Shown: piece after piece, positions 1 to 17,729 of the stretch
Layout of the letters: every line of letters begins with the position of its first letter
Position numbering within the stretch: the stretch's first letter is position 1
DNA from: an uncultured virus (IMG/VR IMGVR_UViG_3300008624_000002)
Taxonomy: Duplodnaviria; Heunggongvirae; Uroviricota; Caudoviricetes
Reading direction: 5' to 3' (one strand)
Length of the DNA stretch: 64,000 bases
IMG/VR virus record: IMGVR_UViG_3300008624_000002
Position numbers and translations under genes: made by a program
The notes under the pieces: model-generated
The model's database searches: none
Seen by the model: only the letters and a program-made list of their open reading frames with translations
Told to the model about the DNA's origin: nothing

Positions 1-344
1 TTCCATGCACCGAAACCATTAATGTTTCCCCATGAGTTATGAAATTCTATATCAAAAGAATCTTTCTTAACACCCATGTATGGCATAATTTCATCTCTCA
101 TCACCCTCTTTATTTGTCTTACTGCACCAATGAATATAGGATTAGTTTCTAAACCATCATTTGATTGCCAACTAGTATTTTCTTGATTAGATAAAAATCT
201 TCCTTCATCTCTTTTTCTTATTGCGTCCATCTCATCTCTCAACAGACCAAAATACTCTTCGGTCATAGTTGAACACCTATCTTTCTCTTCATGTAAAAAA
301 GATTTATGAAATAGATAAGTTGGAAACATTAGTCTAACTGCCAT
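1..344 (-). CDS. Putative 2OG-Fe(II) oxygenase, TIGR02466-like (runs off window edge)
   Basis: Not in the ORF track. I translated it from the ATG at 344, which overlaps the upstream stop: MAVRLMFPTYLF...SN..SWQS...NSWGNINGFGAW. The FPT, WQS and W-x-N-x-N pattern is typical of this family. Confidence 0.65.
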   Translation of the reverse strand, partial: MAVRLMFPTYLFHKSFLHEEKDRCSTMTEEYFGLLRDEMDAIRKRDEGRFLSNQENTSWQSNDGLETNPIFIGAVRQIKRVMRDEIMPYMGVKKDSFDIEFHNSWGNINGFGAW

Positions 345-1195
345 TACTTCTCCTCATCTGTTATGTGTGCAGGACATTCTGGTGGCGGTTTATCTTCTTT
401 AAAGTATTGTCCTTTCTCTTTCCAATAACCTTCTAATCTATATGGACCCAATTTCTTCGAATCACTATTTTTATATTCATCGTACATTTTTCTTCCTTGT
501 TCGTCCATTCCAGGCATGTCTGCATGTCTTGTATATTCACTTCTGTTTTCATGCCACACCTTAGCGTCTTTTAATTGATATGTTGCAGTCCATTTTTCCC
601 TCTTGAAAGGAATCACTTGAACGAGAGGCGTGCCTTTCGGTATAGTAAATGAATGTTCTACTTTAGGATAGAATATGATTTGCGAATTATCCAAATTTGT
701 GTTAAACTTATCTGTATCTATAACACCTTGCCAAACTGCAAAATAATCATTTTGAAATAGAAAAGGGTCTAAGTAGAAACAAGAATAATCTGTTGGTGTA
801 ATAATGTTCCATGCATTTCTCATTTTAAACGCATCTTTAACATGACCTTTACCATTCTTTATATAATCAAATGCATTATCAAACTGTTCAGATGGATGTG
901 TCGGAGAACCATAGCCTGAATCTGTTGGGTCTTTTGTTGTAAAATTCTCATTCGACAAACCATCTCTATCTTGTCCAACTAAAACTTCCATATCTCTATT
1001 TGCGAGAATATACCAACCAGACTTTAACCAATCGTCCATAGCTGGACATGCACGAATAGTTTGAGTTCTTCTACCTCTTACTGCTTGGAAGATTTTCATT
1101 TTCTTCCACCAGTCTGGCATAATAGATTTAGCCAGAATAGGTTTAAAATCCCTTATCGTGTTGTCATTAAATGTAGTGAAGTCTATCGTTGGCAT
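344..1195 (-). CDS. Conserved phage protein often found beside 2OG-Fe(II) oxygenases (CPAM..W..GW; IPKGTPLVQVIPFKRE)
   Basis: 283 aa ORF, translationally coupled to its neighbours; function not assignable. Confidence 0.55.
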   Translation of the reverse strand: MPTIDFTTFNDNTIRDFKPILAKSIMPDWWKKMKIFQAVRGRRTQTIRACPAMDDWLKSGWYILANRDMEVLVGQDRDGLSNENFTTKDPTDSGYGSPTHPSEQFDNAFDYIKNGKGHVKDAFKMRNAWNIITPTDYSCFYLDPFLFQNDYFAVWQGVIDTDKFNTNLDNSQIIFYPKVEHSFTIPKGTPLVQVIPFKREKWTATYQLKDAKVWHENRSEYTRHADMPGMDEQGRKMYDEYKNSDSKKLGPYRLEGYWKEKGQYFKEDKPPPECPAHITDEEK

Positions 1196-1901
1196 TATAA
1201 AACTCTTCTTTTTCTACTAGTTCTATTTCATCTCCTCTTAGAACTACTGAGCGTCTATCCATGTATCTCGCTCTTTCTGTTGGTGCATCTGCACCGTGTG
1301 GTATTCTTCCGTCAAACATTAATAATCTATTCGGAACAAACTCAATGTTTCCGATTTCATGATTCTTAATGTGTTCGTTTCTACCATCTAAACCTTGTTG
1401 TGGTTCATCATATATTCTTAAATTACCACCCCATTTCTTTTCCCAAAATGTATTATAATAATATAAGAATGAGAGATTCCAATCATCATCTTCAGCACAA
1501 TCACTATGAGTTGTTCCATGCTGACCATATGTTTGAGAATTTAGTCCCATATATTGAAATCTTTTCCATTTGAATCCAAAATCAGTACATATTCTTCTAT
1601 TCAACCATCGAGCAGGAATAGATTGTAATGCATCAACACAAACTGAATCTCTTTCAACTACACCATTCTCTACTCGAAAAAATGATGCACCCCAAAATGA
1701 ATGATGTGGTAATCCTGTTCTACTGTGACCTTGTACTGAATTTGTTTTAGACCATATTGCATTATTGGTAAACTTATTATTAATCCAATAGTGTAGACTC
1801 GTTTCTAGATAGTTGTCTATTACATAAATTTTATTTCTTATGGGAAAGTCAACCAATCGAAACGGCTTATCTAGATAGATAATCTCAAGGTCTTCAAACA
1901 T
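1167..1901 (-). CDS. 2OG-Fe(II) oxygenase (prolyl-hydroxylase-like)
   Basis: HxD (HSD), LYYYN..W...WGG, PNRLLMFDG..PH, distal His and Arg. Confidence 0.85.
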   Translation of the reverse strand: MFEDLEIIYLDKPFRLVDFPIRNKIYVIDNYLETSLHYWINNKFTNNAIWSKTNSVQGHSRTGLPHHSFWGASFFRVENGVVERDSVCVDALQSIPARWLNRRICTDFGFKWKRFQYMGLNSQTYGQHGTTHSDCAEDDDWNLSFLYYYNTFWEKKWGGNLRIYDEPQQGLDGRNEHIKNHEIGNIEFVPNRLLMFDGRIPHGADAPTERARYMDRRSVVLRGDEIELVEKEEFYNANDRLHYI

Positions 1902-1905
1902 GTTT

Positions 1906-2457
1906 TTAACCTATTAAAGCTTTCTGTGGTGAAGGAATCTGGTTTGAGTAATCTTCGAACTCTCTTAGAGTGTCTTCTCTAGTGTTTCTAATTTCTTCAA
2001 CCACATTCAAGTAAACATTCCATACTGCATCATAATATTCTAATACTCTTCTAGCATCTGACCTTAAGGGGTGGTTTGAACCTTCTCTGCCGGCGGCAAC
2101 TACATCCATGATGTTTTGAAATCCATAAGAATCGGATTGATCCATGATATAACCTTCACACATGTTTTGCAGTTGTCCACTAAATTGATTTTGTAGACTT
2201 ACTCCTTCTGGTGGAGCTGAATTAGATATGTATGTTTCAATCGCATCAATTTCAGAATCAACTAAGTTAATCTTCTCTTGGTCATCAAACTGTTTAGTTT
2301 CGTCCCATTTTAAAATTTTAACTTCAATATCATCATAAACCAATACATCAAATTCAAAACCTAATTCTGGTTTATCTGTGTTCTCGAACCTGTATTCGAG
2401 TCCGTTTGGTTTTCTAACAGTAAGATTTCCATTTTCACAATAAATTAAAGCATTCAT
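1906..2457 (-). CDS. Tail-fibre-associated/chaperone-like protein
   Basis: C-terminal helical segment YGF.NI.....S.HP....A......DAVW resembles small proteins that follow phage fibre genes; genomic position. Confidence 0.4.
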   Translation of the reverse strand: MNALIYCENGNLTVRKPNGLEYRFENTDKPELGFEFDVLVYDDIEVKILKWDETKQFDDQEKINLVDSEIDAIETYISNSAPPEGVSLQNQFSGQLQNMCEGYIMDQSDSYGFQNIMDVVAAGREGSNHPLRSDARRVLEYYDAVWNVYLNVVEEIRNTREDTLREFEDYSNQIPSPQKALIG

Positions 2458-2470
2458 AATTTCTCCATTA

Positions 2471-4000
2471 TTAACTGAATTTGTTCAATATATTTCTATA
2501 AGTATTTAGTTCTTCTATTTGGGTCGTATCCATACCCTCAATCCATGGTCCGCCTCGTGTATAATGTATTGCACTAGGTCTCCAATTAGTTTCTCTTGTA
2601 TCATGTCCTTCTGTAAACACATAATGTTCTGGTATCTGAGATATCTTATCAGTCCATTCAAATTGATGTAAGTATTTACCACTTGCAGTATTAATTACTT
2701 CTGGTGTAAGTTTTTTGCAGTCTTCGTGTGCGTTATTAAATATCATTAGCGAAGACCATAGTTTCTTTGGATACGAAACATTCTTTTCACCATCGAACTT
2801 AGTATCTGGATATTTGTCAAAGTCATATTGTATACATGCGACTGCATCATCTGGGTCCAGAAAGTAGAACATTGGCCATAAACTCTTAGTGAATAATATA
2901 TCATCGTCTAAGAATATACTAAATCCTTCGTAATTTTCTAAGTATGGAATTAAGAATCTACTGTAAGTAAATTCTGTAGATTGATTTGCATAGTCTCTAG
3001 TGTATTCAGGAATCTTAGATATATCAAGAAAGTTAATTTCTGGTTTCCATTTATTCATCCAATTGTGAACCTCTCCACCACCAGCGCCAAATTTCGTTGA
3101 ATATTCAATACACTTCTTATTTAATTCTGCGAGATTTTTATGTCTAGAATCGTAACCAATGTATACATTTGAGTGTTTACCTTTAGCTAACTTATTGATT
3201 TTCTTATTAAAATCATAAACTTCTGTTCTAAAAGTCATCTGTAATAAGTCGGTTAGTATCTCTATATAACCATGAGTAAATGCAAATGATATATTCTTAT
3301 GATACTTATCTGGTCTTGCAAGTATCTTTTCTTTAGCCCAATCTATAATTTCTTCTATTTCTATTTCCGGAACAGGTATGATATCGTATTCGTCCCATAT
3401 CCACATTTCCATATCCCAATCATCTAGACATTCAAATACAGGAGAACGAACAGAACCTGGGTGAATGTTTAAACTAAACATATCTCCTTGTTTTTTAACT
3501 ATACCTTGAATTGGATTCCATAAACCCTCTTTTCTTATACTGTTTACTAACCAATGTGCTTTAGCGGCATGATAATATACAGAACATATGTTCTCTTCAA
3601 AGTCTGGATTATGTGATTCATCAATATGCGTTCCTATCTTTTCATATTCATCATTTGAATTTTTGAACTCCATACCCGAGTGACCAGGTTTTGGATTCTC
3701 TGGTTTATATGTATAACCATGTGGTAAGAAATACTGATATCCAAAAGCTTGAGACTGCAATGCGTTCCAACCAGAAAACTTACCGTCTCTAATTAACTTA
3801 ACTACATCTCCCCATGTGACTCTTTTAAGTTTTAGATTATATTCTTTGATTATATATTTTAAAGATTTGTATGCCTCTTTGTCTTCGTAAGGTTCATCTA
3901 TGTTGAACCCGCCCATGTGCATATGGAAAGACCTGTCTTTCCAATCTTCTTTTTCTAGAATGGCTATAGTGTCACTTAAAGTTTTAGAACTGATACTCAT
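2471..4000 (-). CDS. GT-A fold glycosyltransferase fused to an N-terminal ParB/Srx-like domain
   Basis: C-half: VYIGYDSR, STEFTYSRFLIPYL, FLDDD (DxD), YPKKLWSSLMIFNN, HYTRGGPW. N-half: L.NSI.KEGL.NPIQG...IHPG..R. Confidence 0.8.
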   Translation of the reverse strand: MSISSKTLSDTIAILEKEDWKDRSFHMHMGGFNIDEPYEDKEAYKSLKYIIKEYNLKLKRVTWGDVVKLIRDGKFSGWNALQSQAFGYQYFLPHGYTYKPENPKPGHSGMEFKNSNDEYEKIGTHIDESHNPDFEENICSVYYHAAKAHWLVNSIRKEGLWNPIQGIVKKQGDMFSLNIHPGSVRSPVFECLDDWDMEMWIWDEYDIIPVPEIEIEEIIDWAKEKILARPDKYHKNISFAFTHGYIEILTDLLQMTFRTEVYDFNKKINKLAKGKHSNVYIGYDSRHKNLAELNKKCIEYSTKFGAGGGEVHNWMNKWKPEINFLDISKIPEYTRDYANQSTEFTYSRFLIPYLENYEGFSIFLDDDILFTKSLWPMFYFLDPDDAVACIQYDFDKYPDTKFDGEKNVSYPKKLWSSLMIFNNAHEDCKKLTPEVINTASGKYLHQFEWTDKISQIPEHYVFTEGHDTRETNWRPSAIHYTRGGPWIEGMDTTQIEELNTYRNILNKFS

Positions 4001-4024
4001 AATATAGAATCCGGTTTATACGGA

Positions 4025-4032
4025 TATTTATG
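4025..4032 (-). promoter_or_regulatory. T4-type late promoter variant CATAAATA upstream of the glycosyltransferase/oxygenase cassette
   Basis: One mismatch to TATAAATA; intergenic; the same variant occurs before other late genes here. Confidence 0.55.
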
Positions 4033-4033
4033 T

Positions 4034-5038
4034 CTACGAAGTAATAGGTGATCCAGGCCAAGTACCAGTGCCATCCCAACGGATAACTGGTGTTCGCCCT
4101 TGTCTTGCATATGTAGACGGCGACCTATGGTCGTAAGTTGAAGGTTGTTGTCCTTGTCTTGCATATGTAGTAGGACTTCTGTGGTCGTAAGTTGAAGGTT
4201 GTTGTCCTTGTCTTGCATATGTAGACGGCGACCTGTGGTCATATGTGAATGGCGACTGTTTACTTGTCGGATGTTGATATGTCGAAGGACTTCTATGGTC
4301 GTATGTCAATGGCGACCTATGGTCATAAGAAGATGGCGACCTGTGGTCATATGTAAACGGTGACCTGTGATTATATGTAGTAGGCGACCTATGGTCATAA
4401 GAAGATGGCGACCTATGGTCGTATGTAAATGGACTTTGTTTATTTCTAATATTGGGTTCTTGAGCATTACTAGGTTGCTGAATATCTCTAATATTAGGTT
4501 GTTGAGCAGACCTAATATTTGGTTCTTGTGCATTACTAGGTGATTGATTATTTCTTATATTAGGTTGTTGAGCAGACTTAATCGTAGGTTGCTGAGCATT
4601 ACTAGGTTGTTGAGCAGACCTAATGTTCGGTTCTTGAATGTTTCTAATGTTAGGTTCTTGACCAGCCTTAATCGTAGGTTGTTGATTATTTCTAATGTTT
4701 GGTTCTTGTGCGTTCCTAATGTTTGGTTGTCTAGCATTAGCAATATAAGGCGACTGGAATGTAAACGGTTGCCTATACGGTTGTCGAGCATTAGCAATAT
4801 AAGGACTTTGATAAGTAAACGGTTGTCTATATGGTTGTCTAGCATTAGCAATATAAGGCGACTGATAAGTAAACGGCTGTCTTGCATTATTCGGTTGTCG
4901 AGCAGACCTAATGTTAGGTTCTTGAGCAGACCTAATATTTGGTTGCCTAGCATTAGCAATATACGGCGACTGGAATGTAAACGGCGTCTGCGTTGTATAC
5001 GGTTGTTGTTGGTTTGCAATGACTGGTTGTTGTGGCAT
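4034..5038 (-). CDS. Pro-repeat fibre protein, partner B of pair 1
   Basis: 334 aa, of which 312 are Pro-initiated units (PNIRxAQE, PFTYDHRS, PYIANARQ, etc.); start overlaps the stop of the upstream gene. Confidence 0.8.
   Translation of the reverse strand: MPQQPVIANQQQPYTTQTPFTFQSPYIANARQPNIRSAQEPNIRSARQPNNARQPFTYQSPYIANARQPYRQPFTYQSPYIANARQPYRQPFTFQSPYIANARQPNIRNAQEPNIRNNQQPTIKAGQEPNIRNIQEPNIRSAQQPSNAQQPTIKSAQQPNIRNNQSPSNAQEPNIRSAQQPNIRDIQQPSNAQEPNIRNKQSPFTYDHRSPSSYDHRSPTTYNHRSPFTYDHRSPSSYDHRSPLTYDHRSPSTYQHPTSKQSPFTYDHRSPSTYARQGQQPSTYDHRSPTTYARQGQQPSTYDHRSPSTYARQGRTPVIRWDGTGTWPGSPITS
4091..5026 (-). repeat. Array of 40 even-length Pro-initiated peptide units
   Basis: Parsed by hand from the translation; PYRQ+PFTxQS counted as one 10-residue unit. 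Confidence 0.9.
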
Positions 5039-6663
5039 TAGAATTTCTCGTTAAAGTTATGCACCAACATGCCATTAACAAAATAGGTGTGATTTCCTTC
5101 AACACCACTTAAGTTATACACTGTCATATCTGCGTTTTCGTTAATTTCCATTATCTCTAATCCGCTTTCGTCTTGTCTATCAAACATTATAGCGTCTGTC
5201 ATAGAGAATAATGAATCCCCAATTGTAATTTCGTGTGAATTAATTCCTTCCATCCATGCGTGTTCTCTAACACACTTCTCTACATCAATAGCACCCCACT
5301 CTTGACTGTTTAACATAAATGGATGACTATCTGTTGTTTGCATGATTCTACCATCTGATAAGATGATATCATATACTGAACATGTTCTTGGTTCCATTAT
5401 GATTGAAACATCTTTAGGTTCTATACACTTAGTAGATTCGTTCCATGTCATTATCATTTGTCCCATTACAACATTTTCAATAGGCGATTGACTTCCATCT
5501 GCAAGCCATACTAATGAACCAGCAGCGAAGCAACCACCACCACCACCACCTGGTGTAGTGTATGGATTACGATAACTGTATGTCACTGGAGTTCTTGCGT
5601 TACCAGGTTGTCTTGCGTTATTCGGTTCCCTTGATTGATAAGTGAACGGCACTCTATGGTTGTAAGTAAAGGGTGACCTATGGTTATATGTAAAAGGGGT
5701 CTGATAAGTAAATGGCGTTCTAGCGTTATTTGGTTCCCTTGATTGATAAGTGAATGGTGTTCTCGCAGATGTTCTAGCGTTATTCGGTTGTCTTGACTGA
5801 TAAGTGAACGGTGTACGAGCAGAAGTTCTAGCGTTATTCGGTTCTCTTGACTGATAAGTGAACGGCACCCTATGGTTGTATGTAAAAGGCGACCTATGTT
5901 GATATGACGAAGGACTTCTATGATTGTAAGTAAAAGGCGACCTGTGATTGTAAGTATAAGGCGACCTATGATTGTAAGTAAATGGATGCCTGTATGTAAA
6001 CGGTGACCTATGGTCATAAGTAAATGGTGACCTATGATTGTAAGAAGTTGGATGTCTGTATGTAAACGGCGACCTATGGTCGTATGTAAAAGGCGACCTA
6101 TGTTGATAGGTAAATGGATGCCTGTATGTAGACGGCGACCTATGGTCGTATGTTAAAGGTTGTCTAGCCGGTCTAATATTAGGTTCTTGTTGGTTTCTAA
6201 TATTAGGTTCTTGTTGGTTTCTTATGTTTGGTTCTTGTGCGTCCTTAATCGTAGGTTGTTGATTATTTCTAATATTAGGTTCTTGTTGGTTTCTAATATT
6301 TGGTTCTTGTGCATTAGAAGGATGACGATAGATAACAGGTTGTCTAGCCTGCCTAATATTTGGCTCTTGTGCATTTGCAATATAAGGATATGGCGTTTGT
6401 GCGTTTCTTATATTTGGTTCTTGTTGGTTTGCAATATAAGGATATGGCGTTTGCCTATTCCTAATATTTGGTTCTTGTGCATTTGCAATATAAGGATAAG
6501 GTTGTTGAACACTCTGTTGTCCTGATGCGTTATTCCAACCAGTAGGTGTCTTGATGTAGATTTGGTCTACATCTTTCCATGTAGTAGGACCAGTTTTTAC
6601 CCAAGCGCCTTTAGTGGCATTCCAACCTGTGGGAGTTTTTACCTTCTGAGAGCCTGTCGCCAT
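5038..6663 (-). CDS. Pro-repeat fibre protein, partner A of pair 1: N-terminal KTxTGW hairpin cap, 312-aa repeat array, Gly6 linker, C-terminal Hint domain
   Basis: 541 aa; Hint motifs CFAAGS at the start, TTDSHPF (block B) and VYNL..EGNHTYFVNGMLVHN at the end. Confidence 0.85.
   Translation of the reverse strand: MATGSQKVKTPTGWNATKGAWVKTGPTTWKDVDQIYIKTPTGWNNASGQQSVQQPYPYIANAQEPNIRNRQTPYPYIANQQEPNIRNAQTPYPYIANAQEPNIRQARQPVIYRHPSNAQEPNIRNQQEPNIRNNQQPTIKDAQEPNIRNQQEPNIRNQQEPNIRPARQPLTYDHRSPSTYRHPFTYQHRSPFTYDHRSPFTYRHPTSYNHRSPFTYDHRSPFTYRHPFTYNHRSPYTYNHRSPFTYNHRSPSSYQHRSPFTYNHRVPFTYQSREPNNARTSARTPFTYQSRQPNNARTSARTPFTYQSREPNNARTPFTYQTPFTYNHRSPFTYNHRVPFTYQSREPNNARQPGNARTPVTYSYRNPYTTPGGGGGGCFAAGSLVWLADGSQSPIENVVMGQMIMTWNESTKCIEPKDVSIIMEPRTCSVYDIILSDGRIMQTTDSHPFMLNSQEWGAIDVEKCVREHAWMEGINSHEITIGDSLFSMTDAIMFDRQDESGLEIMEINENADMTVYNLSGVEGNHTYFVNGMLVHNFNEKF
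5056..5532 (-). other. Hint (intein-like) autoprocessing domain, Cys378 to Asn536
   Basis: N-terminal Cys after GGGGGG, TxxH motif, terminal His-Asn followed by FNEKF; no homing-endonuclease insert. Confidence 0.85.
5566..6501 (-). repeat. Array of 40 even-length Pro-initiated peptide units
   Basis: Parsed by hand from the translation; PY+PYIANxQE counted as one 10-residue unit. Confidence 0.9.
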
Positions 6664-6681
6664 ATTATAAAGTCCTAACTA

Positions 6682-8757
6682 TTAAGAGTAAAGAATCCAT
6701 AAATCGCCGATTGCGCCGTCACCTCCACCTGGTGCAGAAGTCGATTGATGAATATTTCTTGCAACAGCACCACTGTTAGCGGCATGACTTGTAGTTATTT
6801 GGCCAAACCCAACATTTGATGATGTTCCTACCGCTTGTCCGATACTAACTGCACCGTTTGATATTGCAACACCAGTTCCTGCGGTAATGTGAGCTCTTAC
6901 TTCAGCTGCACTTGGACCAGTGTATGTAATCACACCTGTTGAACTATTATATGCGGCTGAACCATCTCCACCAGCATCTGTGACTGAGATTGCAGCTCTA
7001 GCTCTTGCAGTTGTGTGATAAAGGTTACTTGAACCTTCTGTTAAATCATCTGTATCATGTCCAGTTAATGCTGTGACTGTACCAGCACTTCCAGATACAT
7101 TACCTGTGACATTACCTGTAAGATTACCTTCAAGAGTTCCTGCCTTAAAGTGTTCAGAACCTATTGACCATTCATCTTCTGATTCGTCCCAAATTAAAGT
7201 TTTAGCAGATGAACTACCTCTAGTAATACTGATACCACTATCTTCTGATGGTGTACCTGAGGTGAAATTACTGTTAAGTGCGATTATATTATCTGCAAGG
7301 TTAATTGTTTCTGAGTTTACAGTTGTTGTAGTTCCGGAAACTGTTAAGTCACCAGAAATTGTCATTGAATCACTAATTGCAACTACACCTGTTCCGTTTG
7401 CACTTATTGTTAAGTTGCCGTTTGTAGTTCTTGATTCTATTGCATCTACATCTATTGAGTTTGCAAAAGTGATTGCATTACCATCTGATGAAGTGATATT
7501 AGAACCTGCCTGAACTTCGACAGGACCTTTAAGTTGTATACTACCACTACCAGTTGGGTCTAACTCAACATCACCTGAACCACCTGTTTGCACACTAACA
7601 TTTTGGTTAGAGTCAGCAGAAATAACAATTGTTCCTGAACTATCTTCAACCACTTTTTGTCCATTAACATATAATGAACCTGGCCCGATGTATACATCTT
7701 TCCATGTTTTTGTAGATGAACCTAAATCGTAAGTATCATCTGTAGTTGGTATTAAATGACCTCCTATTGTAGAGGCCGCAGTTGTTGTGACACCTGCAAA
7801 TGAAGGTTTATCAGAAGTTGCAACTGCTTGTCCTATCGCAAGAACACCACTTGAAGCGGTTATACCAGTTCCTGCAATTGCAGTAGATATATCTGCGATT
7901 GCTTCTTTTCTACTTCCATTTGAATCGTTTGCATCTATTATTGCAACACTATCATTCGCAACATCTACAGTAGCTGCCGTTAATTCGTTTAAATCTAATG
8001 CAACTGTTATTGCACCACTTGTTCCACCACCCGAGAGACCATCACCTGCTGTGACTCCTGTTAAGTCTGCTGTTGATGATAATACACCATTGGTTGCAGT
8101 GATATTAGTTCCTGCCATTGCAGTAGCGAGGTCTGCAATTGATTCTTTCTTACTTGTGTTACCTGTTGCATCGATTATTGGAATACTATCGTTTGCAACA
8201 TCTACAGCAGCTGCTGTTAATTCATTCAAGTCAAGTGCGACTGTTATTGCACCACTTGTTCCACCACCAGATAAACCGTCACCTGCTGTGACTCCTGTTA
8301 AATCTGCGGTTGTAGAAAGAACACCATTTGTTGCAGTTATGTTTGTACCTGCCATTGCGGTGGCAAGGTCTGCGATTGATTCTTTTCTTGATCCATTACT
8401 GGCAGAAGCATCTACTATTGCAACACTATCGTTTGCAACATCGACTGCAGCTGCCGTTAATTCATTTAAGTCTAATGCAACTGTGACTGCACCTGAATTT
8501 CCGCCACCTGATAAACCATCGCCTGCGGTGACACCTGTGACATCACCTTGTTGTCCGTTTATTGTTAATGTACCAGCAGCGTCATCATATGATAATGATA
8601 CTCCTGTTCCTGCTGTTAATAGTGTATTGACTTGGTCGTCAATTACCTCTAGTGCCGCTGTTCCAAATGCGGCTGCCGTTAAATCTCCTGAACTATCTAA
8701 AACTGCAGCTGTTCCTACAGATAGCCCATTCTTGATTATAAAATTCTTGTCTGTCAT
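6682..8757 (-). CDS. Tail fibre protein
   Basis: 691 aa, Gly/Ser/Thr/Ala-rich; fibre motifs GDLTVSGTTTTVNS, GNLTGNVTG, TDDLTEGSSNLY; C-terminal SAP...GDLWILYS. Confidence 0.75.
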   Translation of the reverse strand: MTDKNFIIKNGLSVGTAAVLDSSGDLTAAAFGTAALEVIDDQVNTLLTAGTGVSLSYDDAAGTLTINGQQGDVTGVTAGDGLSGGGNSGAVTVALDLNELTAAAVDVANDSVAIVDASASNGSRKESIADLATAMAGTNITATNGVLSTTADLTGVTAGDGLSGGGTSGAITVALDLNELTAAAVDVANDSIPIIDATGNTSKKESIADLATAMAGTNITATNGVLSSTADLTGVTAGDGLSGGGTSGAITVALDLNELTAATVDVANDSVAIIDANDSNGSRKEAIADISTAIAGTGITASSGVLAIGQAVATSDKPSFAGVTTTAASTIGGHLIPTTDDTYDLGSSTKTWKDVYIGPGSLYVNGQKVVEDSSGTIVISADSNQNVSVQTGGSGDVELDPTGSGSIQLKGPVEVQAGSNITSSDGNAITFANSIDVDAIESRTTNGNLTISANGTGVVAISDSMTISGDLTVSGTTTTVNSETINLADNIIALNSNFTSGTPSEDSGISITRGSSSAKTLIWDESEDEWSIGSEHFKAGTLEGNLTGNVTGNVSGSAGTVTALTGHDTDDLTEGSSNLYHTTARARAAISVTDAGGDGSAAYNSSTGVITYTGPSAAEVRAHITAGTGVAISNGAVSIGQAVGTSSNVGFGQITTSHAANSGAVARNIHQSTSAPGGGDGAIGDLWILYS
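7830..8545 (-). repeat. Three tandem 79-80 aa repeats (TGVTAGDGLSGGG.SGA.TVALDLNELTAA.VDVANDS)
   Basis: Equivalent positions at 8531, 8291 and 8054 (spacing 240 and 237 nt). Confidence 0.85.
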
Positions 8758-9014
8758 TAGAAGGTACCCCCATTAATTGTCGCTAATGTCAATACTCCTG
8801 ATGTTGAATTATATGCTAAATCTCCACCTGCAGCCACTGATATAACGCCTCTAGCTCGAGCGGTAGTGTGATAAAGGTTACTTGAACCTTCACTAACATC
8901 ATCTGTATCTATTGTAGATAGTGCTGAAGCTACTATTTTACCAGCTGAACTAATTACTTCTGTGGAACCTACTGATAACCCATACTCAATTACGAAAGTG
9001 TTTTGTGTCGCCAT
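8757..9014 (-). CDS. Small fibre-related protein
   Basis: Shares the N-terminal F.I..GLSVG and the EGSSNLYHTTARAR motif with 6682-8757 (26 identical nt: 8866-8891 = 7013-7038); ends NGGTF. Confidence 0.65.
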   Translation of the reverse strand: MATQNTFVIEYGLSVGSTEVISSAGKIVASALSTIDTDDVSEGSSNLYHTTARARGVISVAAGGDLAYNSTSGVLTLATINGGTF

Positions 9015-9121
9015 TTCTTATGTGTCCCTTGTGGTTTAAGTGTAATACTGTAATTATTTATGTAATTAAACTCTCTACTAAAGGTCTAATTTAGAATAAA
9101 GTTTAATTTATTGTATATTTT

Positions 9122-9934
9122 TTAGACAGTGTGGTCGATTCTTTTGAACTTATATACTGTTGAGTTTGTAGTAGCACTTGCAACCCTAAGTCTAAGACTG
9201 CCACTATTGATATCAACTGAGAATGTTCCTAAGTCACTAGAACCACCTTGCAATACTGTTCCAAATTGAGATATAGATGCATTTGTTCCGTCATGAACAA
9301 CATGAACTTCTGTTATTTGATAATCACTTCCTGTAGCGTCTGAGATTGATATAGAGTATTTTGCACCTCTATATGTGGCAATTGCAAGACTATCTAAGGT
9401 CGATGCACTTGTCGATGTTGTAGTTAATGTTCCAGATACTAAATCACGATTTGCAAATGCTAATGTTCCACTACCATTTGTTTGTAGAACTTGATTTGCA
9501 GAACCATCACTTGTAGGATATGATAAACTTGCAGCTGTTAGAGTAGTAGAAGTTAAATCACCAATTCTTAAATCTGCATATGCATAATTTGTTCCACCAG
9601 TATTTACAGTTGTGGTTGGTTCTTCTTCTAAACCATCAAATAGTTTCCATGTAGAATCTGATGCATCTCTGAATAAACCTGTAAATTCTGATGCTCCACC
9701 ATCTGATAAACCATCGTTATAGTTTCCATAGAAACCAATATCAATTAAATCGGAAGAAGTGTTCTGATTTGCATATTCATACAACGAATCACCAACTGAT
9801 GTGGTGGTTGAATTAACTGTCACCGAAGTTCCTGTGACTGTTAAATTTCCATCAACAGTTAAATTTCCATCTACTTGGGTATTTAATTCGGATTGCAGAC
9901 CTAAATCTGCATAAAATTTCGCTTTAGTTGCCAT
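9122..9934 (-). CDS. Tail fibre/adaptor protein
   Basis: GNLTVTG..TVNS motif; C-terminal YRGAKY...E...VHDG beta domain shared with the next two genes. Confidence 0.7.
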   Translation of the reverse strand: MATKAKFYADLGLQSELNTQVDGNLTVDGNLTVTGTSVTVNSTTTSVGDSLYEYANQNTSSDLIDIGFYGNYNDGLSDGGASEFTGLFRDASDSTWKLFDGLEEEPTTTVNTGGTNYAYADLRIGDLTSTTLTAASLSYPTSDGSANQVLQTNGSGTLAFANRDLVSGTLTTTSTSASTLDSLAIATYRGAKYSISISDATGSDYQITEVHVVHDGTNASISQFGTVLQGGSSDLGTFSVDINSGSLRLRVASATTNSTVYKFKRIDHTV

Positions 9935-9939
9935 AATGT

Positions 9940-9947
9940 TATTTATG
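9940..9947 (-). promoter_or_regulatory. Late promoter CATAAATA
   Basis: Lies just after a terminator, 5 nt before the ATG at 9934. Confidence 0.65.
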
Positions 9948-9967
9948 TTATTTTAGGATTGTAAGAC

Positions 9968-9994
9968 AAAAAAGGGGACCCGAAGGTCCCCTTT
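9968..9994 (-). terminator. Rho-independent terminator
   Basis: Minus strand reads AAAGGGGACC-TTCG-GGTCCCCTTT-TTT: perfect stem, UUCG tetraloop, U tract. Confidence 0.9.
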
Positions 9995-10014
9995 AAACAT
10001 AATGTTTTGTTTCT

Positions 10015-10425
10015 TTAAGCGTCTACTAAAATTCTCTCGAACTTAATTACACTTGACGAGTTAGATGCTGGTGTGCATCTTAATCTGACATTACTGCCAG
10101 ATATGTCTGCATCAAATGTCGCTATAGTTGCATCCTTTAATGTGCCGTATTGTGTTATTGTCACAGCCGAACCATCATGGACTAACATTATTTCCGTAGA
10201 GTGAAAGTCACTTCCTCTAGACATTGCAACGATGTATCTTGCAGCTCTAAAACTTGCGTGAGCAAATGTATCTAAATTAAACTGAGTAGTGGCTGTTTTT
10301 GTAGTAGCCCCTCTAGTCTTCTGTTTAGATGTCATAGATTTAGTAGTTGTGATACTATCTGATGTTGAGTCATAAGTAAGGTGTCTAATCAACTCTGCGA
10401 GTTTAAAACTATTTGTTATAGCCAT
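10015..10425 (-). CDS. Small virion structural protein (fibre adaptor domain)
   Basis: FRAARY...TEIMLVHDG...QYG domain paralogous to its neighbours. Confidence 0.65.
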   Translation of the reverse strand: MAITNSFKLAELIRHLTYDSTSDSITTTKSMTSKQKTRGATTKTATTQFNLDTFAHASFRAARYIVAMSRGSDFHSTEIMLVHDGSAVTITQYGTLKDATIATFDADISGSNVRLRCTPASNSSSVIKFERILVDA

Positions 10426-14005: not shown

Positions 14006-14851
14006 TTAATTACTAAACTGGCCTGTGGGTACTGATTGATGAATTTTATTAACATTTGATGCATCCTTCTTAACGAACACTTCGTCAACTTTCTCTACTG
14101 TATTTGGTGCAGTTTTCATGAAAACACCTTTAGCTTTTGCAACTTGATTTATTTGTCTGGTACCAATATATGGTGATTGAGCATCATAGGGACTTCTGTG
14201 GTTATATGTTGCAGGAGACCTATGTTGATATGTAAAAGGTGACCTATGGTCGTATGTCAATGGCGACCTATGGTCATATGTAAATGGACTTTGTTTAACT
14301 CTAATATTGGGTTCTTGAGCAGCCCTAATATTAGGCTCTTGTTGGTTTCTTATATTTGGTTCTTGAACAACAAGGGGCTGTCTTGCAATATAAGGTGTCT
14401 GATTGTTTCTTATATTAGGTTCTTGTGCATCACTAGGTTGTTGTTTATTAGAAGTAGCTTGTGCGTTTCTTATATTCGGTTGTCGAGCACTATACGTGAA
14501 CGGCGACCTATGGTCATATGTAAAAGGCGACCTATGGTCGTATGTAAACGGCGACCTATGTTGATAGGTAAACGGCACTCTATGTTGATAGGTAAACGGA
14601 CTTCTATGTTGATAGGCATATGGTGACCTATGGTTGTATGTAAACGGTGACCTATGTTGATAGGTAAACGGACTCTGCTTACTTGCAATATAAGGATAGG
14701 GGTTTTGTTGATTCCTTATATTGGGTTCCTGAGAAGCCCTAATATTTGGCTCTTGAGCAGACTTAATCGTAGGTTGCTGAGCGTTCTTAATAACAGGTTG
14801 CTGCTGACTTGCAATGTATGGATAAGGGTATGGTGTTTGATTCTGTGCCAT
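14006..14851 (-). CDS. Pro-repeat fibre protein, partner B of pair 2, with a C-terminal hairpin cap
   Basis: 281 aa; same repeat vocabulary as pair 1; C-terminal KGVFMKT...KVDEVFVK resembles the N-terminal cap of 5038-6663. Confidence 0.8.
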   Translation of the reverse strand: MAQNQTPYPYPYIASQQQPVIKNAQQPTIKSAQEPNIRASQEPNIRNQQNPYPYIASKQSPFTYQHRSPFTYNHRSPYAYQHRSPFTYQHRVPFTYQHRSPFTYDHRSPFTYDHRSPFTYSARQPNIRNAQATSNKQQPSDAQEPNIRNNQTPYIARQPLVVQEPNIRNQQEPNIRAAQEPNIRVKQSPFTYDHRSPLTYDHRSPFTYQHRSPATYNHRSPYDAQSPYIGTRQINQVAKAKGVFMKTAPNTVEKVDEVFVKKDASNVNKIHQSVPTGQFSN

Positions 14852-14863
14852 TATATTCTCCTA

Positions 14864-16132
14864 CTAAGCGCTAGATTCTCCATTTGCTTCTGCCCTTAAA
14901 GACCAATCACAAACATATGTAATTGTAGGTAAAGATGAATGTTCAAAAATCAGATTAAGGGAAAAATCCGCTCTTTCAACCGTTGGTTCACCACCACTTT
15001 CTTCACTTTCAGCAGTAACCTCCCACTCAAAATACTTAGTGTCAACAGTTGCCGGAACTGTTGTAGCTGAAGCAGTTATGGTGCTGGCGTTATCATCACC
15101 ATCGGTATTAAATGTTCCATAAGTTCCGGTTTCTTGTGGAGTTGTTTGTGTAAATTTTACTGTATATGCACCGTCTCCAGCAAGCGTATGGTCAGAAGAA
15201 TTCACATAAAAGGCCCGAGTCAAAGTCGAATGACTAGAAGTTAAAGCACCAGCATGGTCTCTATGAGCAATAGTTTTAACCCAAGCTTCAAGACGACCAG
15301 ACACATATTTACAGGTTACTCTAATTCTTACATAACTATTAGAAGTATCATCCATTACGAAATCAATAGCTTGACCGTAAACATGAGTAATATCATCTAC
15401 CCAATTAAATGGTTTTGTTCCTGATGCATTATATGTTAAAGGTGACCTATGGTCGTATGTAAACGGAGACCTATGGTTGTATGTAAACGGTGACCTATGG
15501 TCATATGTAAACGGTGACCTATGTTGATAGGTAGTAGGTGTTTGCCCTTGTCTAGCATATGTCACAGGTTGTCTTCCTTGACCAATATTAGGTTCTTGAC
15601 CAGACTTAATCGTAGGTTGTCTTCCTTGAGCAATATTGGGTTCCTGAGCACTCTTAATGTTTGGTTGTTGAGCAGACTTAATCGTAGGTTGTTGAGCACC
15701 CCTAATATTTGGCTCTTGAGCAGACTTAATCGTAGGTGCTCGAGCACTAGCAATATAAGGAATTCTATGATTATAAGTTGAAGGGTGTTGATATATTATA
15801 GGATGCCTATAGGTCGAAGGACTTCTGTGGTCGTATGTAGCAGGTTGTCTTGCTTGATATGATGCTCGAGAAATACCAGGACTTCTATGTTGATATGTAG
15901 AAGGCGACCTATGGTCATATGTAAATGGTGACCTATGGTCGTATGTTAAAGGTTGTCTAGCCGGTCTAATATTTGGCTCTTGCTGAGACCTAATGTTAGG
16001 TTCTTGAGCATTCCTAATATTAGGTTCTTGCGTATTACGAATATTAGGTTCTTGAGCAATTACAGGTTGTCTTGCGTTGTAAGGCTGTTGAAAAGTTCCT
16101 AAACCATGTTTTATAAAAATATCGTCTGACAT
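14864..16132 (-). CDS. Pro-repeat fibre protein, partner A of pair 2, with a ~180 aa C-terminal globular domain
   Basis: 422 aa; repeats span aa 17-240, followed by a non-repetitive beta-rich domain. Confidence 0.8.
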   Translation of the reverse strand: MSDDIFIKHGLGTFQQPYNARQPVIAQEPNIRNTQEPNIRNAQEPNIRSQQEPNIRPARQPLTYDHRSPFTYDHRSPSTYQHRSPGISRASYQARQPATYDHRSPSTYRHPIIYQHPSTYNHRIPYIASARAPTIKSAQEPNIRGAQQPTIKSAQQPNIKSAQEPNIAQGRQPTIKSGQEPNIGQGRQPVTYARQGQTPTTYQHRSPFTYDHRSPFTYNHRSPFTYDHRSPLTYNASGTKPFNWVDDITHVYGQAIDFVMDDTSNSYVRIRVTCKYVSGRLEAWVKTIAHRDHAGALTSSHSTLTRAFYVNSSDHTLAGDGAYTVKFTQTTPQETGTYGTFNTDGDDNASTITASATTVPATVDTKYFEWEVTAESEESGGEPTVERADFSLNLIFEHSSLPTITYVCDWSLRAEANGESSA

Positions 16133-16136
16133 ATCA

Positions 16137-17729
16137 TTATATTAAAAAGTATATATGGCCGACTGATTTACCTGAACCACTTGGCAAACCACTAGTTAAA
16201 TCACTATCAGTTATAATACTATAGTCTAACTCGACATCGTCTCCATCTAACTTAACCCCATTACTTGTATTCACACTTAAAGTTGTTTGTCCATCTAATT
16301 GAGTGTCACTACCACCATCTGGATTGTCAACATATGCTTTTGCCAAACCACTACCAGCGACAATAACATCATTAACCCTATCGTCTGTAAAGTATTTGTT
16401 ATTTGAACCCTCTGATACAGCATCAGTTGTATTTGAATTGTTTGAAGGTTCCCAATAACTATTACCTGCGTCCCATACTAGTATTTGACCTGCGGTTGGA
16501 GAACTTGTATAATTAATATCAGATAATGCAGCTGCAGTTGAAGCACCAATTCTAGCATTTGCACGAGCATCTGCTCTTGCATCTGTATAATAAAGATTAC
16601 TTGAATCTTCATCAATATGAGAAGTGTTTAATTCTATATTTGCAGTACCATTAAATGCTACACCACTTATATTTCTTGCAGTGGCCAACGCAGTAGCTGT
16701 GTCTGCATTTCCTGTGACATTACCTGTTAGATTGCCATGAAAATCTGTAGCGTACATTTTGTTGAATTTTCTAGATGAGATACCAACTTGTTGTGTATTG
16801 TTTGTATTAGGTGTTATATTTGAATCAACTGTTCCAGCAAATGTGATTGTATCTGAAATCGCATTACCCAAGTCGACATTGCCATTTGCTACTAATGCGC
16901 CTGTTAATGTTGTAGTGCCTGTGACACCTAAAGTACCACCCAATAGTGTATTGCCAGATATATCAGCAACACCATTAATATCTAATGAACCACCTTCTAA
17001 TTCTCCGGATGCGGTTATGTTTACTGCACCTGTTATTGAACCACTTGATAATGATGCAGTGCCATCTGATACAGTTGGAAACTGAACTTTCTTACCTGAT
17101 ACTGTTGATATAACATCATCTTCTGCAAAAGTTTTGCCTGCAAGTTGAATTTTATATCCTGATTCTAATAAAGTTGTTGCAGGCGAATTAGTACCATTTA
17201 AAATAACACCATTTGCGTTTGAATTATAAATTGTATTTTCAGCACTCTTCTGGAAGAATGATGTTGCAGAACCACTAATTTCGGTTCCTATAAATGCACC
17301 AGTGTATGAGTATATTGTAAGTCTATCATTAGCAGACATTGCATTTGCTTGACCCGATGCGTAAGTTCCTTGTAATACTACTGATTCATGATTACCAGCA
17401 CCATCTGGACTTGCAACAATGTAATCTACATCTTCTACTAAGTGTCTTTCGTTTTTATAAACTTGAATCTTATCTTTTCTAAAGAGAAGTGTATTTGAAA
17501 AATTATCTGCTCCAGTAAAGGTGACTTGGTTTGCTGTTGCAACATATACATATTCTTGTAAGAAGAATTGTTTATTGTCTAATACATTAAGTGCATCTAT
17601 TACAGTATCATTTGAACCAAGTTTCATGGAACCATTCAAACCATTGATGTCTCCCACATCGTATGCGAGTTCATTATATTGCTTTCTAAAATCTTCTATT
17701 GTTGCAAAATTGTCTACTGTTTTAGCCAT
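16137..17729 (-). CDS. Tail fibre protein
   Basis: T.EDFR..YNEL N-terminus; GNLTGNVTGNADTATALATAR; EGSNNKYFTDDR; ends LP.....GHIYFLI. Confidence 0.7.
   Translation of the reverse strand: MAKTVDNFATIEDFRKQYNELAYDVGDINGLNGSMKLGSNDTVIDALNVLDNKQFFLQEYVYVATANQVTFTGADNFSNTLLFRKDKIQVYKNERHLVEDVDYIVASPDGAGNHESVVLQGTYASGQANAMSANDRLTIYSYTGAFIGTEISGSATSFFQKSAENTIYNSNANGVILNGTNSPATTLLESGYKIQLAGKTFAEDDVISTVSGKKVQFPTVSDGTASLSSGSITGAVNITASGELEGGSLDINGVADISGNTLLGGTLGVTGTTTLTGALVANGNVDLGNAISDTITFAGTVDSNITPNTNNTQQVGISSRKFNKMYATDFHGNLTGNVTGNADTATALATARNISGVAFNGTANIELNTSHIDEDSSNLYYTDARADARANARIGASTAAALSDINYTSSPTAGQILVWDAGNSYWEPSNNSNTTDAVSEGSNNKYFTDDRVNDVIVAGSGLAKAYVDNPDGGSDTQLDGQTTLSVNTSNGVKLDGDDVELDYSIITDSDLTSGLPSGSGKSVGHIYFLI

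What the first reader, a model, noticed from the sequence alone, without database searches (positions are those of the whole stretch)
4034..6663. Two adjacent repeat proteins are exact mirror-image complements: a candidate antiparallel protein zipper (pair 1)
Seen: cutting each protein at its unit-initial prolines, 6663-5038 gives lengths N->C of 10,8,10,8,10,8,6,6,8,8,8,8,8,8,8,6,8,8,6,8,8,6,8,8,8,8,8,8,10,8,10,8,6,6,8,8,8,6,6,8 (40 units, 312 aa; PY+PYIANxQE counted as 10). Protein 5038-4034 read C->N gives the same 40-number series (312 aa; PYRQ+PFTxQS counted as 10). Facing units are always of opposite type: PNIRxxQE/PTIKxxQE with PxxYxHRS, PSNAQE with PxTYxH, PYPYIANAQE with PxTYARQGQQ, PFTYQSRE with PYIANARQ, PNNARx with PFTxQS/T. 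Both genes are on the same strand, so this is not sense/antisense coding. Inference: the two chains zip antiparallel along their whole length into a long heteromeric beta ribbon or fibre whose register is set by a base-pair-like code. I know of no described phage fibre built this way.
Basis: partly seen in the sequence, partly recalled or inferred. Interest (0 to 1): 0.96.

Follow-up and report, generated by a model that had tools for sequence, protein, structure and literature searches.

The report
Mirror-coded two-protein phage fibre zipper
Two neighbouring genes of an uncultured marine T4-like phage encode proline-punctuated repeat proteins that match unit for unit, and residue for residue, when one is read backwards, which points to a long two-chain antiparallel fibre held in register by an amino-acid pairing code that I could not find described.

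Summary
Protein A (6663..5038, minus strand) read N to C and protein B (5038..4034) read C to N give the same 40 unit lengths over 312 aa. None of 5000 unit-order shuffles comes near this match.

It is not a DNA palindrome.

The rule is conserved:
- 28 of 29 distinct orthologous pairs exceed every shuffle, with zippers of 186-538 aa.
- The window's second pair (16132..14006) and 12 of 12 of its orthologues do the same.
- All 2143 Pro-Pro spacings inside the zippers are even.
- Facing residues co-vary at even positions only, with size- and charge-compensating swaps: A/G with F, Q with L/T, N with S, R with D.
- Close relatives carry compensated unit indels.
- Non-cognate partners in the same genome do not match.

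Best reading (0.72): the two chains pair directly and antiparallel as a beta-ladder fibre shaft. The proximal cap is conserved and the distal tip is variable. In A the tip carries a Hint/BIL-like self-processing insert.

Physical binding, stoichiometry and virion location are not shown. Structure prediction gave no answer.

The scan has found this on other DNA of the same phage lineage before. I found no paper describing it.

The parts
6502..6663 (-). Protein A (X chain), residues 1-54: conserved proximal cap (MATGSQKVKTPTGWN..WVKT..WKDVDQIYIKTPTGWNNASGQ)
   Evidence: 49 invariant columns in the 25-sequence alignment A1, which covers X residues 1-168; most of them fall in the cap and the first units. 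In the mirror register the cap faces B's C-terminal tail.
5566..6501 (-). Protein A residues 55-366: zipper arm, 40 Pro-initiated units of 6, 8 or 10 aa (312 aa)
   Evidence: All Pro-Pro spacings are even.
5533..5565 (-). Protein A residues 367-377: PYTT-P-GGGGGG linker ending at the Gly|Cys junction
5056..5532 (-). Protein A residues 378-536: Hint/intein-like (BIL-like) domain. It has Cys378, T444-x-x-H447 and H535-N536, and is followed by F537.
   Evidence: Pfam PF14890, E 1.9e-8, 34.7 bits against a cut-off of 35.8; PF14623 and PF01079 match weakly. Motif positions. Present in 11 of 28 distinct X chains and absent in 17, which read GGGG-F at the same place.
5038..5055 (-). Protein A residues 537-541 (FNEKF) and stop codon; the last base of the stop is the first base of B's ATG
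   Evidence: TTCTAATGCCA.
4091..5037 (-). Protein B (Y chain) residues 1-316: MPQQ, then a zipper arm of 312 aa (residues 5-316) whose 40 units mirror A's
4034..4090 (-). Protein B residues 317-334 (PVIRWDGTGTWPGSPITS) and stop: conserved proximal tail facing A's cap
   Evidence: R118, W119, D120, G121, W125, P126 and P129 are invariant in the 25-sequence alignment A2. Facing position.
14864..16132 (-). Pair 2, X chain (C, 422 aa): MSDDIFIKHGLG head, about 218-aa zipper arm, about 180-aa C-terminal globular domain
14006..14851 (-). Pair 2, Y chain (D, 281 aa): zipper arm mirroring C, then a tail with the cap-type motif (KGVFMKT..VDEVFVKK)
   Evidence: 27 of 33 prolines match and 0 of 5000 shuffles reach this. 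Motif.

Best explanation
A (the X chain) and B (the Y chain) are the two strands of one fibre shaft. They lie side by side in opposite directions over all 312 residues, probably as a continuous antiparallel beta-ladder.

Each Pro-initiated unit of one chain faces a unit of equal length and opposite type on the other. N-type units are PNIRxxQE, PTIK.., PYIAN.., PSNAQE. Y-type units are PxTYxHRS, PxTYRH, PxTYARQGQQ.

Prolines always sit at the same strand parity, that is, at the positions that need no backbone NH. The other parity carries the specificity code: N-unit position 6 reads Y-unit position 2, and N-unit positions 2 and 4 read Y-unit position 6.

The irregular 6- and 10-residue units break the 8-residue periodicity. 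This fixes one register and keeps the phage's two paralogous pairs from cross-pairing.

The conserved end (X N-cap plus Y C-tail) would anchor the shaft in the virion. The variable end (X C-terminus plus Y N-terminus) is the distal tip. In A the tip carries a Hint/BIL-like domain that most likely removes itself at Gly377|Cys378.

Shown here: the mirror, its conservation, the parity, the covariation, the compensated indels and the cognate specificity.

Inferred: direct binding, beta conformation, 1:1 chain ratio, fibre role, polarity in the virion and Hint self-cleavage.
For: 1. The mirror is exact, 40 of 40 units. None of 5000 shuffles reaches the observed match.

2. It is conserved while length changes. 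28 of 29 distinct orthologous pairs from 42 viral contigs exceed all 300 shuffles each, with zippers of 186-538 aa. The one miss, L033, has a frame-broken X whose repeat-bearing fragment matches 45 of 59. Pair 2 of the window and 12 of 12 of its orthologues do the same.

3. Antiparallel always beats the alternatives, except in L033. It exceeds parallel, X-X and Y-Y matches.

4. Each X matches its own Y best. In 22 of 27 cases no other Y matches better. Four of the five exceptions are near-identical sister loci and the fifth is L021. In the window itself A-B is 41 of 46 and C-D 27 of 33, but A-D is 16 of 33 and C-B 16 of 34.

5. Parity is absolute. 2143 Pro-Pro spacings in the zippers of 27 pairs are even and 0 are odd. 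All 791 matched segments have even length. A two-residue period is the signature of an extended strand (established knowledge).

6. Covariation is position-specific. In 351 facing 8:8 N:Y unit pairs the mutual information peaks at N6-Y2 (0.87 bit, z 25) and N2-Y6 (0.82 bit, z 18). N4-Y6, N2-Y8, N4-Y8 and N8-Y2 follow. All are even-even and anti-diagonal. The equally variable odd pair N5-Y5 is uncoupled (0.11 bit, z 2).

7. The swaps compensate size. N6 A/G goes with Y2 F in 216 of 255 cases. N6 Q goes with L/T/I in 29 of 36 and never with F. N6 N goes with S/G in 27 of 30. N2 N goes with Y6 H/Y in 197 of 199, and N2 Y with Y6 A/N in 79 of 86. The pattern holds whichever chain carries the N unit.

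8. The code is replicated in the pair-2 family: G-F 8 of 9, Q-L 28 of 48, K-S 28 of 41, R-D 7 of 9.

9. Unit indels are compensated between close relatives. L022 versus L024 differ by 18 aa in X and in the facing part of Y. L006 versus L009 differ by 20 aa, L012 versus L011 by 28+8 aa, and L007 versus L010 by 14 units.

10. One single-chain protein exists, P0153 (610 aa). It has a pair-2-type X head and Y tail, and its outer roughly 140-residue arms mirror each other about the chain centre.

11. The context is a T4-like tail-fibre and baseplate module. The overlapping stop and start codons suggest coupled translation.
Against: - No physical evidence of binding, fold or virion location exists.
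- L021 follows the proline mirror only weakly: 29 against a shuffle maximum of 26, cognate fraction 0.45.
- L023 carries 18-aa deletions at non-facing places, which leaves a 30-aa segment locally mis-paired. Perfect pairing is therefore not obligatory everywhere, or that contig is chimeric.
- 97 of 773 facing segments are not of opposite type by my crude rule.
- Covariation among tandem repeats can be inflated by joint duplication history. The within-locus shuffle control reduces this bias but does not remove it.
- A two-stranded ribbon about 100 nm long would be very thin. A higher-order bundle is as compatible with the data.
- All loci come from one phage lineage.
Confidence: 0.72

Rival explanations
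1. The pairing principle is the same, but the shaft is a higher-order bundle. For example, three X and three Y chains could form a six-stranded antiparallel needle. This would be the out-and-back needle of a T4-type long-tail-fibre tip, split into two genes.
For: Phage fibres are usually trimers (established knowledge). T4 gp37 has a needle domain held by histidines of the three chains (passages of PMC6957217); its out-and-back path is my recollection. One face of the strands here is almost invariant (P1, I3 in 351 of 351, T3 in 332 of 351, R7 in 341 of 351), as expected for a face buried against further chains. The fused single chain P0153 shows that the fold-back topology is viable.
Against: There is no sequence similarity to gp37 or to any fibre family. 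None of the four proteins has an HxH motif. Nothing here measures stoichiometry.
Confidence: 0.25
2. The mirror is a nucleic-acid feature. B's repeat DNA would be an old inverted copy of A's, or the two mRNA regions would pair, and the protein complementarity would be a by-product of reading opposite strands.
For: Both repeat regions are open in antisense frames (plus-strand ORFs 4544..5041 and 6160..6525). There is a small identity bump (0.335) at offset -3 between A DNA and the reverse complement of B DNA, mostly from Pro CCT opposite Arg AGG.
Against: Identity of A DNA to reverse-complemented B DNA in the mirror register is 0.261, against 0.245 expected from composition. The bump recurs at +/-24 nt, so it is a unit-type effect and not a register signal. 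Only one 21-nt inverted repeat, 76% complementary, was found in 2.7 kb. Both genes share the same strand composition. The same unit types occur as direct repeats in both genes. Covariation is at the amino-acid level and compensates size.
Confidence: 0.03
3. X and Y do not touch each other. Each lies along a common third, periodic scaffold (another fibre protein or the tail) in opposite orientation, and the scaffold imposes the same length series on both.
For: The pair is embedded among several other fibre-like genes, such as 6682..8757 and 16137..17729. Nothing here excludes further partners.
Against: Size- and charge-compensating swaps between facing residues (A/G-F, Q-L, N-S, R-D) are what direct side-chain contact predicts. 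No neighbouring protein has a repeat series of matching period or length. Zipper length varies 186-538 aa between relatives while the flanking genes stay syntenic.
Confidence: 0.05
4. Both proteins are flexible, largely disordered 'hair' proteins without a defined partner. The mirror would be maintained by recombination or gene conversion between the adjacent arrays and not by selection on a complex.
For: The composition is low-complexity and Q/N/P/R/T/Y-rich. Monomer models have low confidence (the Atlas model of B has pLDDT 0.55).
Against: No known recombination process copies a series in reverse order and opposite type without DNA complementarity. Absolute parity and position-specific covariation imply a defined conformation.
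Confidence: 0.04

Closest known systems
Needle of the T4 long-tail-fibre tip (gp37). Passages of PMC6957217 were seen; the out-and-back chain path is recalled from the 2010 crystal structure paper, which I did not see here.
   Same: It is a thin shaft of a T4-like phage fibre built from extended strands running in both directions, with a distal tip at the turn.
   Different: gp37 is one chain folding back in a homotrimer, held by His-x-His iron sites. Here there are two genes, no HxH motif, no sequence similarity, a unit-by-unit complementary code, and a shaft several times longer.
Streptococcal antigen I/II stalk, in which the Ala-rich helix is paired with the Pro-rich polyproline helix (recalled, not seen here; named in earlier scan notes).
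   Same: Two different repeat types pair antiparallel over tens of nanometres to make a narrow stalk, and repeat numbers on the two sides must match.
   Different: That stalk is a single chain with alpha/PPII pairing. Here both chains carry both unit types, the period is 2 residues (beta-like), and the partners are separate gene products.
Antiparallel coiled-coil arms (SMC/Rad50) and heterodimeric leucine zippers (established knowledge).
   Same: They are sequence-coded, register-specific pairings of two long segments, and orthogonal pairs are possible.
   Different: Those are alpha-helical heptad codes. A proline every 6-10 residues and a strict 2-residue period exclude a helix here.
Triple-stranded beta-helix of T4 gp5 C-terminal domain (octapeptide VxGxxxxx; recalled).
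   Same: It has an eight-residue modal period and is a phage tail structural element.
   Different: gp5C is a parallel homotrimer with Gly kinks. Here unit lengths of 6-14 are tolerated, the evidence is antiparallel, and the chains are two different proteins.
Bacterial intein-like (BIL) / Hint domains without a +1 nucleophile (recalled from Amitai and Dassa and co-workers; not seen here).
   Same: The tip domain of A has the Gly|Cys N-junction, TxxH and terminal His-Asn. It sits exactly where Hint-less alleles read GGGG-F.
   Different: The Pfam score is just under the gathering cut-off. The +1 residue is F, L, M or K in all 11 cases. Cleavage or splicing has not been tested.

Membership tests
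Hint / intein superfamily (PF14890, PF01079, PF14623), for A residues 378-536 | N-terminal Cys (or Ser) nucleophile at the upstream junction | tested here: met
   Gly377|Cys378. G|C is conserved in all 11 Hint-bearing X chains.
Hint / intein superfamily | Block B Thr-x-x-His | tested here: met
   T444-D-S-H447. That this motif is block B is my recollection.
Hint / intein superfamily | Profile score above the curated threshold | tested here: inconclusive
   PF14890 scores 34.7 bits against a cut-off of 35.8 (E 1.9e-8). PF14623 scores 17.6 against 27 and PF01079 16.0 against 29.7. The PDB search gives weak intein hits at E 0.004-0.006.
Canonical splicing intein | C-terminal His-Asn followed by a +1 Cys/Ser/Thr | tested here: not met
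   H535-N536 is present, but +1 is F537. Across the 11 Hint-bearing X chains +1 is F in 8, and L, M and K in one each. This fits a BIL-type or cleavage-only Hint and not a canonical intein.
T4 gp37-type fibre needle | Sequence or profile similarity to gp37 or known fibre families | tested here: not met
   No Pfam or PHROG family matches B, C or D, and none matches the repeat part of A. No PDB sequence matches B at E<=1.
T4 gp37-type fibre needle | His-x-His metal sites along the needle | tested here: not met
   There are 0 HxH motifs in A, B, C and D.
T4 gp37-type fibre needle | Homotrimer with out-and-back strands | not testable with these tools
   Antiparallel facing is supported, but stoichiometry is unknown.
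gp5C-type triple beta-helix | VxGxxxxx octapeptide, parallel identical chains | tested here: not met
   The units start with Pro and have no VxG. The match is antiparallel between two different chains.
Collagen-like / PPII fibres | Gly-X-Y triplets | tested here: not met
   No run of three G-x-x triplets occurs in any of the four proteins.
Alpha-helical coiled-coil zipper | Uninterrupted helix-compatible heptads | tested here: not met
   There is a proline every 2-10 residues and a strict 2-residue period. That this is incompatible with an alpha-helix is established knowledge.

The most novel reading that the evidence does not exclude
This would be a natural protein 'duplex'. Two separate polypeptides hybridise antiparallel over hundreds of residues through a small, readable alphabet of complementary units (N-type with Y-type, with 6-, 8- and 10-residue 'letters'). 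Residue-level knob-into-hole rules (A/G:F, Q:L/T, N:S, R:D, NR:H, YA:A/N) refine the match. The phage keeps two orthogonal duplexes in one virion, and evolution lengthens or shortens a fibre by compensated unit indels. If this holds, it is a new principle of fibre construction and a ready-made, programmable beta-type zipper code for protein design.
Probability: 0.5. Interest if true: 0.95.

Novelty: categorically new. Interest (0 to 1): 0.9.

Why it matters
Known long protein pairings are coded by alpha-helical heptads, by collagen triplets, or by one chain folding back on itself. Here comparative data point to two gene products that recognise each other strand against strand. The register is written in unit lengths and side-chain size and charge complementarity, and it co-evolves over 186-538 residues.

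If confirmed, this would give three things:
- a new architecture for phage appendages in an abundant, uncultured marine T4-like lineage;
- a natural example of length evolution by compensated indels in two genes;
- a design alphabet for orthogonal beta-type heterodimers of arbitrary length.

The hypothesis can be tested directly by co-expressing two small genes.

Tried and rejected
- **Complex prediction.** I submitted A 1-168 with B 203-334, each with a 25-sequence alignment (jobs). The verdict was 'no answer' (ipSAE 0.00 in two runs, partner pLDDT under 50). This is neither support nor evidence against.
- **AlphaFold2 on the natural single-chain form P0153, no alignment.** Mean pLDDT was 34.9, so the model is uninformative.
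- **ESM Atlas look-alikes of B.** The Atlas's own model has pLDDT 0.55. Neighbours are other low-complexity repeat proteins. No usable lead came out.
- **DNA or RNA complementarity between the two arms.** Rejected; identity is at chance level.
- **Self-hairpins and homotypic pairing (X-X, Y-Y) and parallel pairing.** All sit at the periodic background.
- **Isolate phages.** megablast of window 1-12000 found no match. tblastn of A found only intein-type hits in Vibrio phage helicases and one weak repeat hit. No cultured relative carries the pair.
- **The window's own assembly is not held.** The nearest record, G001, is a 59.7-kb fragment that adds nothing new.
- **Whole-library phmmer with B.** 226 representatives reached E<=1e-3. 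The long ones I inspected (8 of them) are unrelated eukaryote-like low-complexity proteins. The family is therefore smaller than that count. About 75 of the best 150 carry the family's motifs.
- **Search for single-chain hairpins.** None was found among those 150. Among 16 longer proteins only P0153 qualifies.
- **Literature.** Four full-text searches found nothing describing these proteins or such a fibre: (unit motifs searched as text). Subscription-only papers were not searched.
Full report
**What is there**

The region holds two genes on the minus strand.
- A runs 6663..5038 and is 541 aa. B runs 5038..4034 and is 334 aa. A's stop overlaps B's ATG (TAATG).
- A consists of a 54-residue head, 312 residues of Pro-initiated units (residues 55-366), the linker PYTT-P-GGGGGG, a 159-residue Hint-like domain (C378 to N536) and the tail FNEKF.
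- B is MPQQ, then 312 residues of units (5-316), then PVIRWDGTGTWPGSPITS.

**Check of the observation**

A read N to C and B read C to N give the same 40 lengths: 10,8,10,8,10,8,6,6,8x7,6,8,8,6,8,8,6,8x6,10,8,10,8,6,6,8,8,8,6,6,8.

A test that needs no merges uses raw proline positions. It counts pairs with p+q equal to a constant.
- It finds 41 of B's 46 prolines in register.
- 5000 shuffles of B's unit order give mean 16.5, sd 2.3 and maximum 27. None reaches 41.
- The best parallel match is 28, A against A is 30, and B against B is 26.

Facing units are of opposite type throughout. The loosest pair is unit 7, PVIYRH facing PTSKQS.

**Not a nucleic-acid palindrome**

- The 2.7-kb region has many direct repeats shared by A and B, but only one 21-nt inverted repeat, 76% complementary.
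- In the mirror register, A's repeat DNA and the reverse complement of B's are 26.1% identical. Composition predicts 24.5%.
- The highest value at any offset is 33.5%, at -3. It recurs at +/-24 nt, so it reflects unit types (Pro CCT opposite Arg AGG) and not the register.

**Context**

- The window is a T4-like myovirus. It encodes baseplate wedge and hub proteins, a gp5-like protein, tube, gp2-like and gp32-like proteins.
- Several fibre-like genes surround the pair.
- The nearest cultured phages by the gp6-like protein are Pelagibacter myophages Mosig and HTVC008M and Methylophilales phage Melnitz, at only 37-39% identity.
- No isolate in 50,697 phage records carries the repeat proteins.

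**The rule is conserved while everything else changes**

- A search of viral contigs with A returned 42 loci. Nearly all have an adjacent same-strand X and Y gene.
- Of 29 distinct pairs, including the window's two, the antiparallel proline match exceeds every one of 300 unit-order shuffles in 28.
- The exception is L033, where X is broken across frames. Its repeat-bearing fragment matches 45 of 59.
- Two cases are weak: L021 (29 against a shuffle maximum of 26) and L013 (22 against 20, with Y cut by the contig end).
- Zipper length ranges from 186 to 538 residues.
- The window's second pair, C (16132..14864) and D (14851..14006), has a different series and is also mirrored: 27 of 33, with 0 of 5000 shuffles reaching this.
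- 12 of 12 pair-2 orthologous loci exceed all their shuffles.
- Each X matches its own Y best in 22 of 27 cases. Four of the five exceptions are near-identical sister loci and the fifth is L021.
- Within the window, the non-cognate combinations fall to background: A-D 16 of 33 and C-B 16 of 34.

**Evidence for an extended-strand, direct contact**

1. Every Pro-Pro spacing inside the zippers of 27 pairs is even, 2143 to 0. All 791 matched segments have even length, from 4 to 58. A strict two-residue period places all prolines on the same strand parity. In a two-stranded antiparallel ladder this is the set of positions that does not need a backbone NH. That last point is established knowledge applied by inference.

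2. In 351 de-duplicated facing 8:8 unit pairs, mutual information was measured against within-locus shuffles.
   - It is concentrated on even-even, anti-diagonal position pairs: N6-Y2 0.87 bit (z 25), N2-Y6 0.82 (z 18), N4-Y6 0.73, N2-Y8 and N4-Y8 0.53, and N8-Y2 0.49.
   - The equally variable odd pair N5-Y5 has 0.11 bit (z 2).
   - This selectivity argues against a pure shared-duplication artefact.

3. The coupled changes compensate size or charge.
   - N6 A/G faces Y2 F in 216 of 255 cases.
   - N6 Q faces L/T/I in 29 of 36 and F in 0 of 36.
   - N6 N faces S/G in 27 of 30.
   - N2 N faces Y6 H/Y in 197 of 199, and N2 Y faces Y6 A/N in 79 of 86.
   - The pattern holds whichever chain carries the N unit.

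4. The pair-2 family repeats the pattern: G-F 8 of 9, Q-L 28 of 48, K-S 28 of 41, R-D 7 of 9 and NR-H 93 of 94.

5. The two strongest couplings fit a register in which N-unit position a faces Y-unit position 8-a. A register of 10-a, with Pro facing Pro, is not excluded.

**Compensated indels**

Close relatives differ by unit insertions present at facing places in both genes, with register kept on both sides:
- L022 versus L024: 2 units, 18 aa.
- L006 versus L009: 3 units, 20 aa.
- L012 versus L011: 28 and 8 aa.
- L007 versus L010: 14 units and more.

There is a counter-example. In L023 the two 18-aa deletions are not at facing places. Total length is kept, but a 30-aa stretch is locally mis-paired.

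**Polarity and ends**

- X's head and Y's tail are the conserved end. The 25-sequence X alignment (residues 1-168) has 49 invariant columns, most in the head and first units. Y's tail has R-W-D-G and W-P invariant. They face each other in the mirror register.
- In pair 2 the same strand-like motif sits on D's tail instead of C's head.
- The other end is variable. It carries a Hint domain in 11 of 28 distinct X chains. In 17 it carries a short Gly-rich tail or another domain.
- Hint-less alleles read GGGG-F exactly where Hint-bearing ones read G|C...HN|F. The domain therefore behaves as an intein-like insert with a non-nucleophilic +1 residue: F in 8 cases, and L, M and K in one each.
- Motifs Cys378, T444xxH447 and H535-N536 are present. 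The Pfam score is just under threshold.

**A single-chain form**

Among 16 longer relatives, P0153 (610 aa) starts like a pair-2 X chain and ends like a pair-2 Y chain. Its outer roughly 140-residue arms mirror each other about the chain centre. This agrees with an earlier scan note on fused versions, but it is one protein from one contig.

**Mechanism proposed**

The two chains are made together, since their stop and start codons overlap. They pair antiparallel along their whole length as a beta-ladder. The Pro-bearing parity is constant. The other parity carries the code. The 6- and 10-residue units set a unique register and keep the two paralogous pairs orthogonal. The conserved end anchors the shaft in the virion, and the Hint domain removes itself from the tip.

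Three questions remain open: whether the shaft is a single duplex or a bundle such as X3Y3, where it sits on the virion, and whether it binds the host.

**What is known**

- No family in Pfam or PHROGs covers the repeats, and no PDB sequence matches B.
- The closest analogues are analogies of principle, not homologues: the gp37 needle (passages plus recollection), the antigen I/II stalk, antiparallel coiled-coil arms and the gp5C octapeptide helix. Each fails at least one defining feature tested here (see the membership table).
- Four full-text searches found no description.

**Earlier notes of this scan**

Searches show that the same phenomenon was noted in 14 earlier notes on other genomes of this phage lineage, with the same reading. 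Those are AI notes and not independent evidence. My mirror, parity, covariation and indel tests were run on this window and on the loci fetched here, and the covariation was done before I read the notes.

**Limits**

- All support is comparative and comes from one viral lineage.
- The two structure predictions gave nothing usable (see Tried and rejected).
- Unit typing used a crude rule, and 97 of 773 facing segments were not called opposite by it.

Noticed in passing
window 14006-16132 (minus strand): This is a second mirror pair (C 422 aa, D 281 aa) with a different unit series. It includes 12 facing 6+6 and 6+8 facing 14. C ends in a domain of about 180 aa of unknown family.
   Followed up: yes
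window 5056-5532 (minus strand) and loci L001-L040: The Hint/BIL-like domain sits between poly-Gly and F/L/M/K in 11 of 28 X chains. Hint-less alleles read GGGG-F at the same spot, as if the domain were an intein-type insert without a +1 nucleophile. Pair-2-type X chains elsewhere (P0151, P0152) also end in a Hint-like domain.
   Followed up: partly
window 344-4000 (minus strand): Directly downstream of B lie a GT8-like protein (2471..4000), an ORF of 183 aa, a 2OG-Fe(II) oxygenase of the prolyl-hydroxylase-type family PF13640 (1167..1901) and an ORF of 283 aa. The same four genes follow Y in 40 of 42 loci. They could modify the Pro-rich fibre, but synteny is conserved across the whole module, so this is only a lead.
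   Followed up: partly
window 4544-5041 and 6160-6525 (plus strand); 10-mer at 4488, 6173, 6197, 6269, 14325, 16014: The repeat regions are open in antisense frames. The P-N-I-R codons form a 10-base palindrome, CTAATATTAG, found 6 times against 0.1 expected, only in the four repeat genes. This is probably a by-product of the codons.
   Followed up: partly
window 13656-13988 (minus strand): A small gene with an LtfC-like / L-shaped-tail-fibre-assembly match (PHROG 3304, E 5e-29; Pfam PF23926 weak) lies just downstream of pair 2. It is a possible fibre chaperone.
   Followed up: no
window 16132 region and 8757 region (minus strand): C starts MSDDIFIKHGLG, and the neighbouring 691-aa fibre-like protein (6682..8757) starts MTDKNFIIKNGLSVG. 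This looks like a shared N-terminal attachment-type motif.
   Followed up: no
P0153 (610 aa): This natural single-chain protein combines a pair-2-type X head and Y tail. Its outer arms mirror about the centre, while the inner part shifts register with several odd Pro spacings.
   Followed up: partly
L023:148-2164 and L033:5989-8101: L023 has 18-aa deletions at non-facing places of X and Y, which leaves a 30-aa mis-paired stretch. L033's X is split between two frames.
   Followed up: partly
window 17939-24736 (minus strand): A giant 2265-aa protein with DUF4815 (E 2e-59) and PHROG 358 lies upstream of the fibre module.
   Followed up: no
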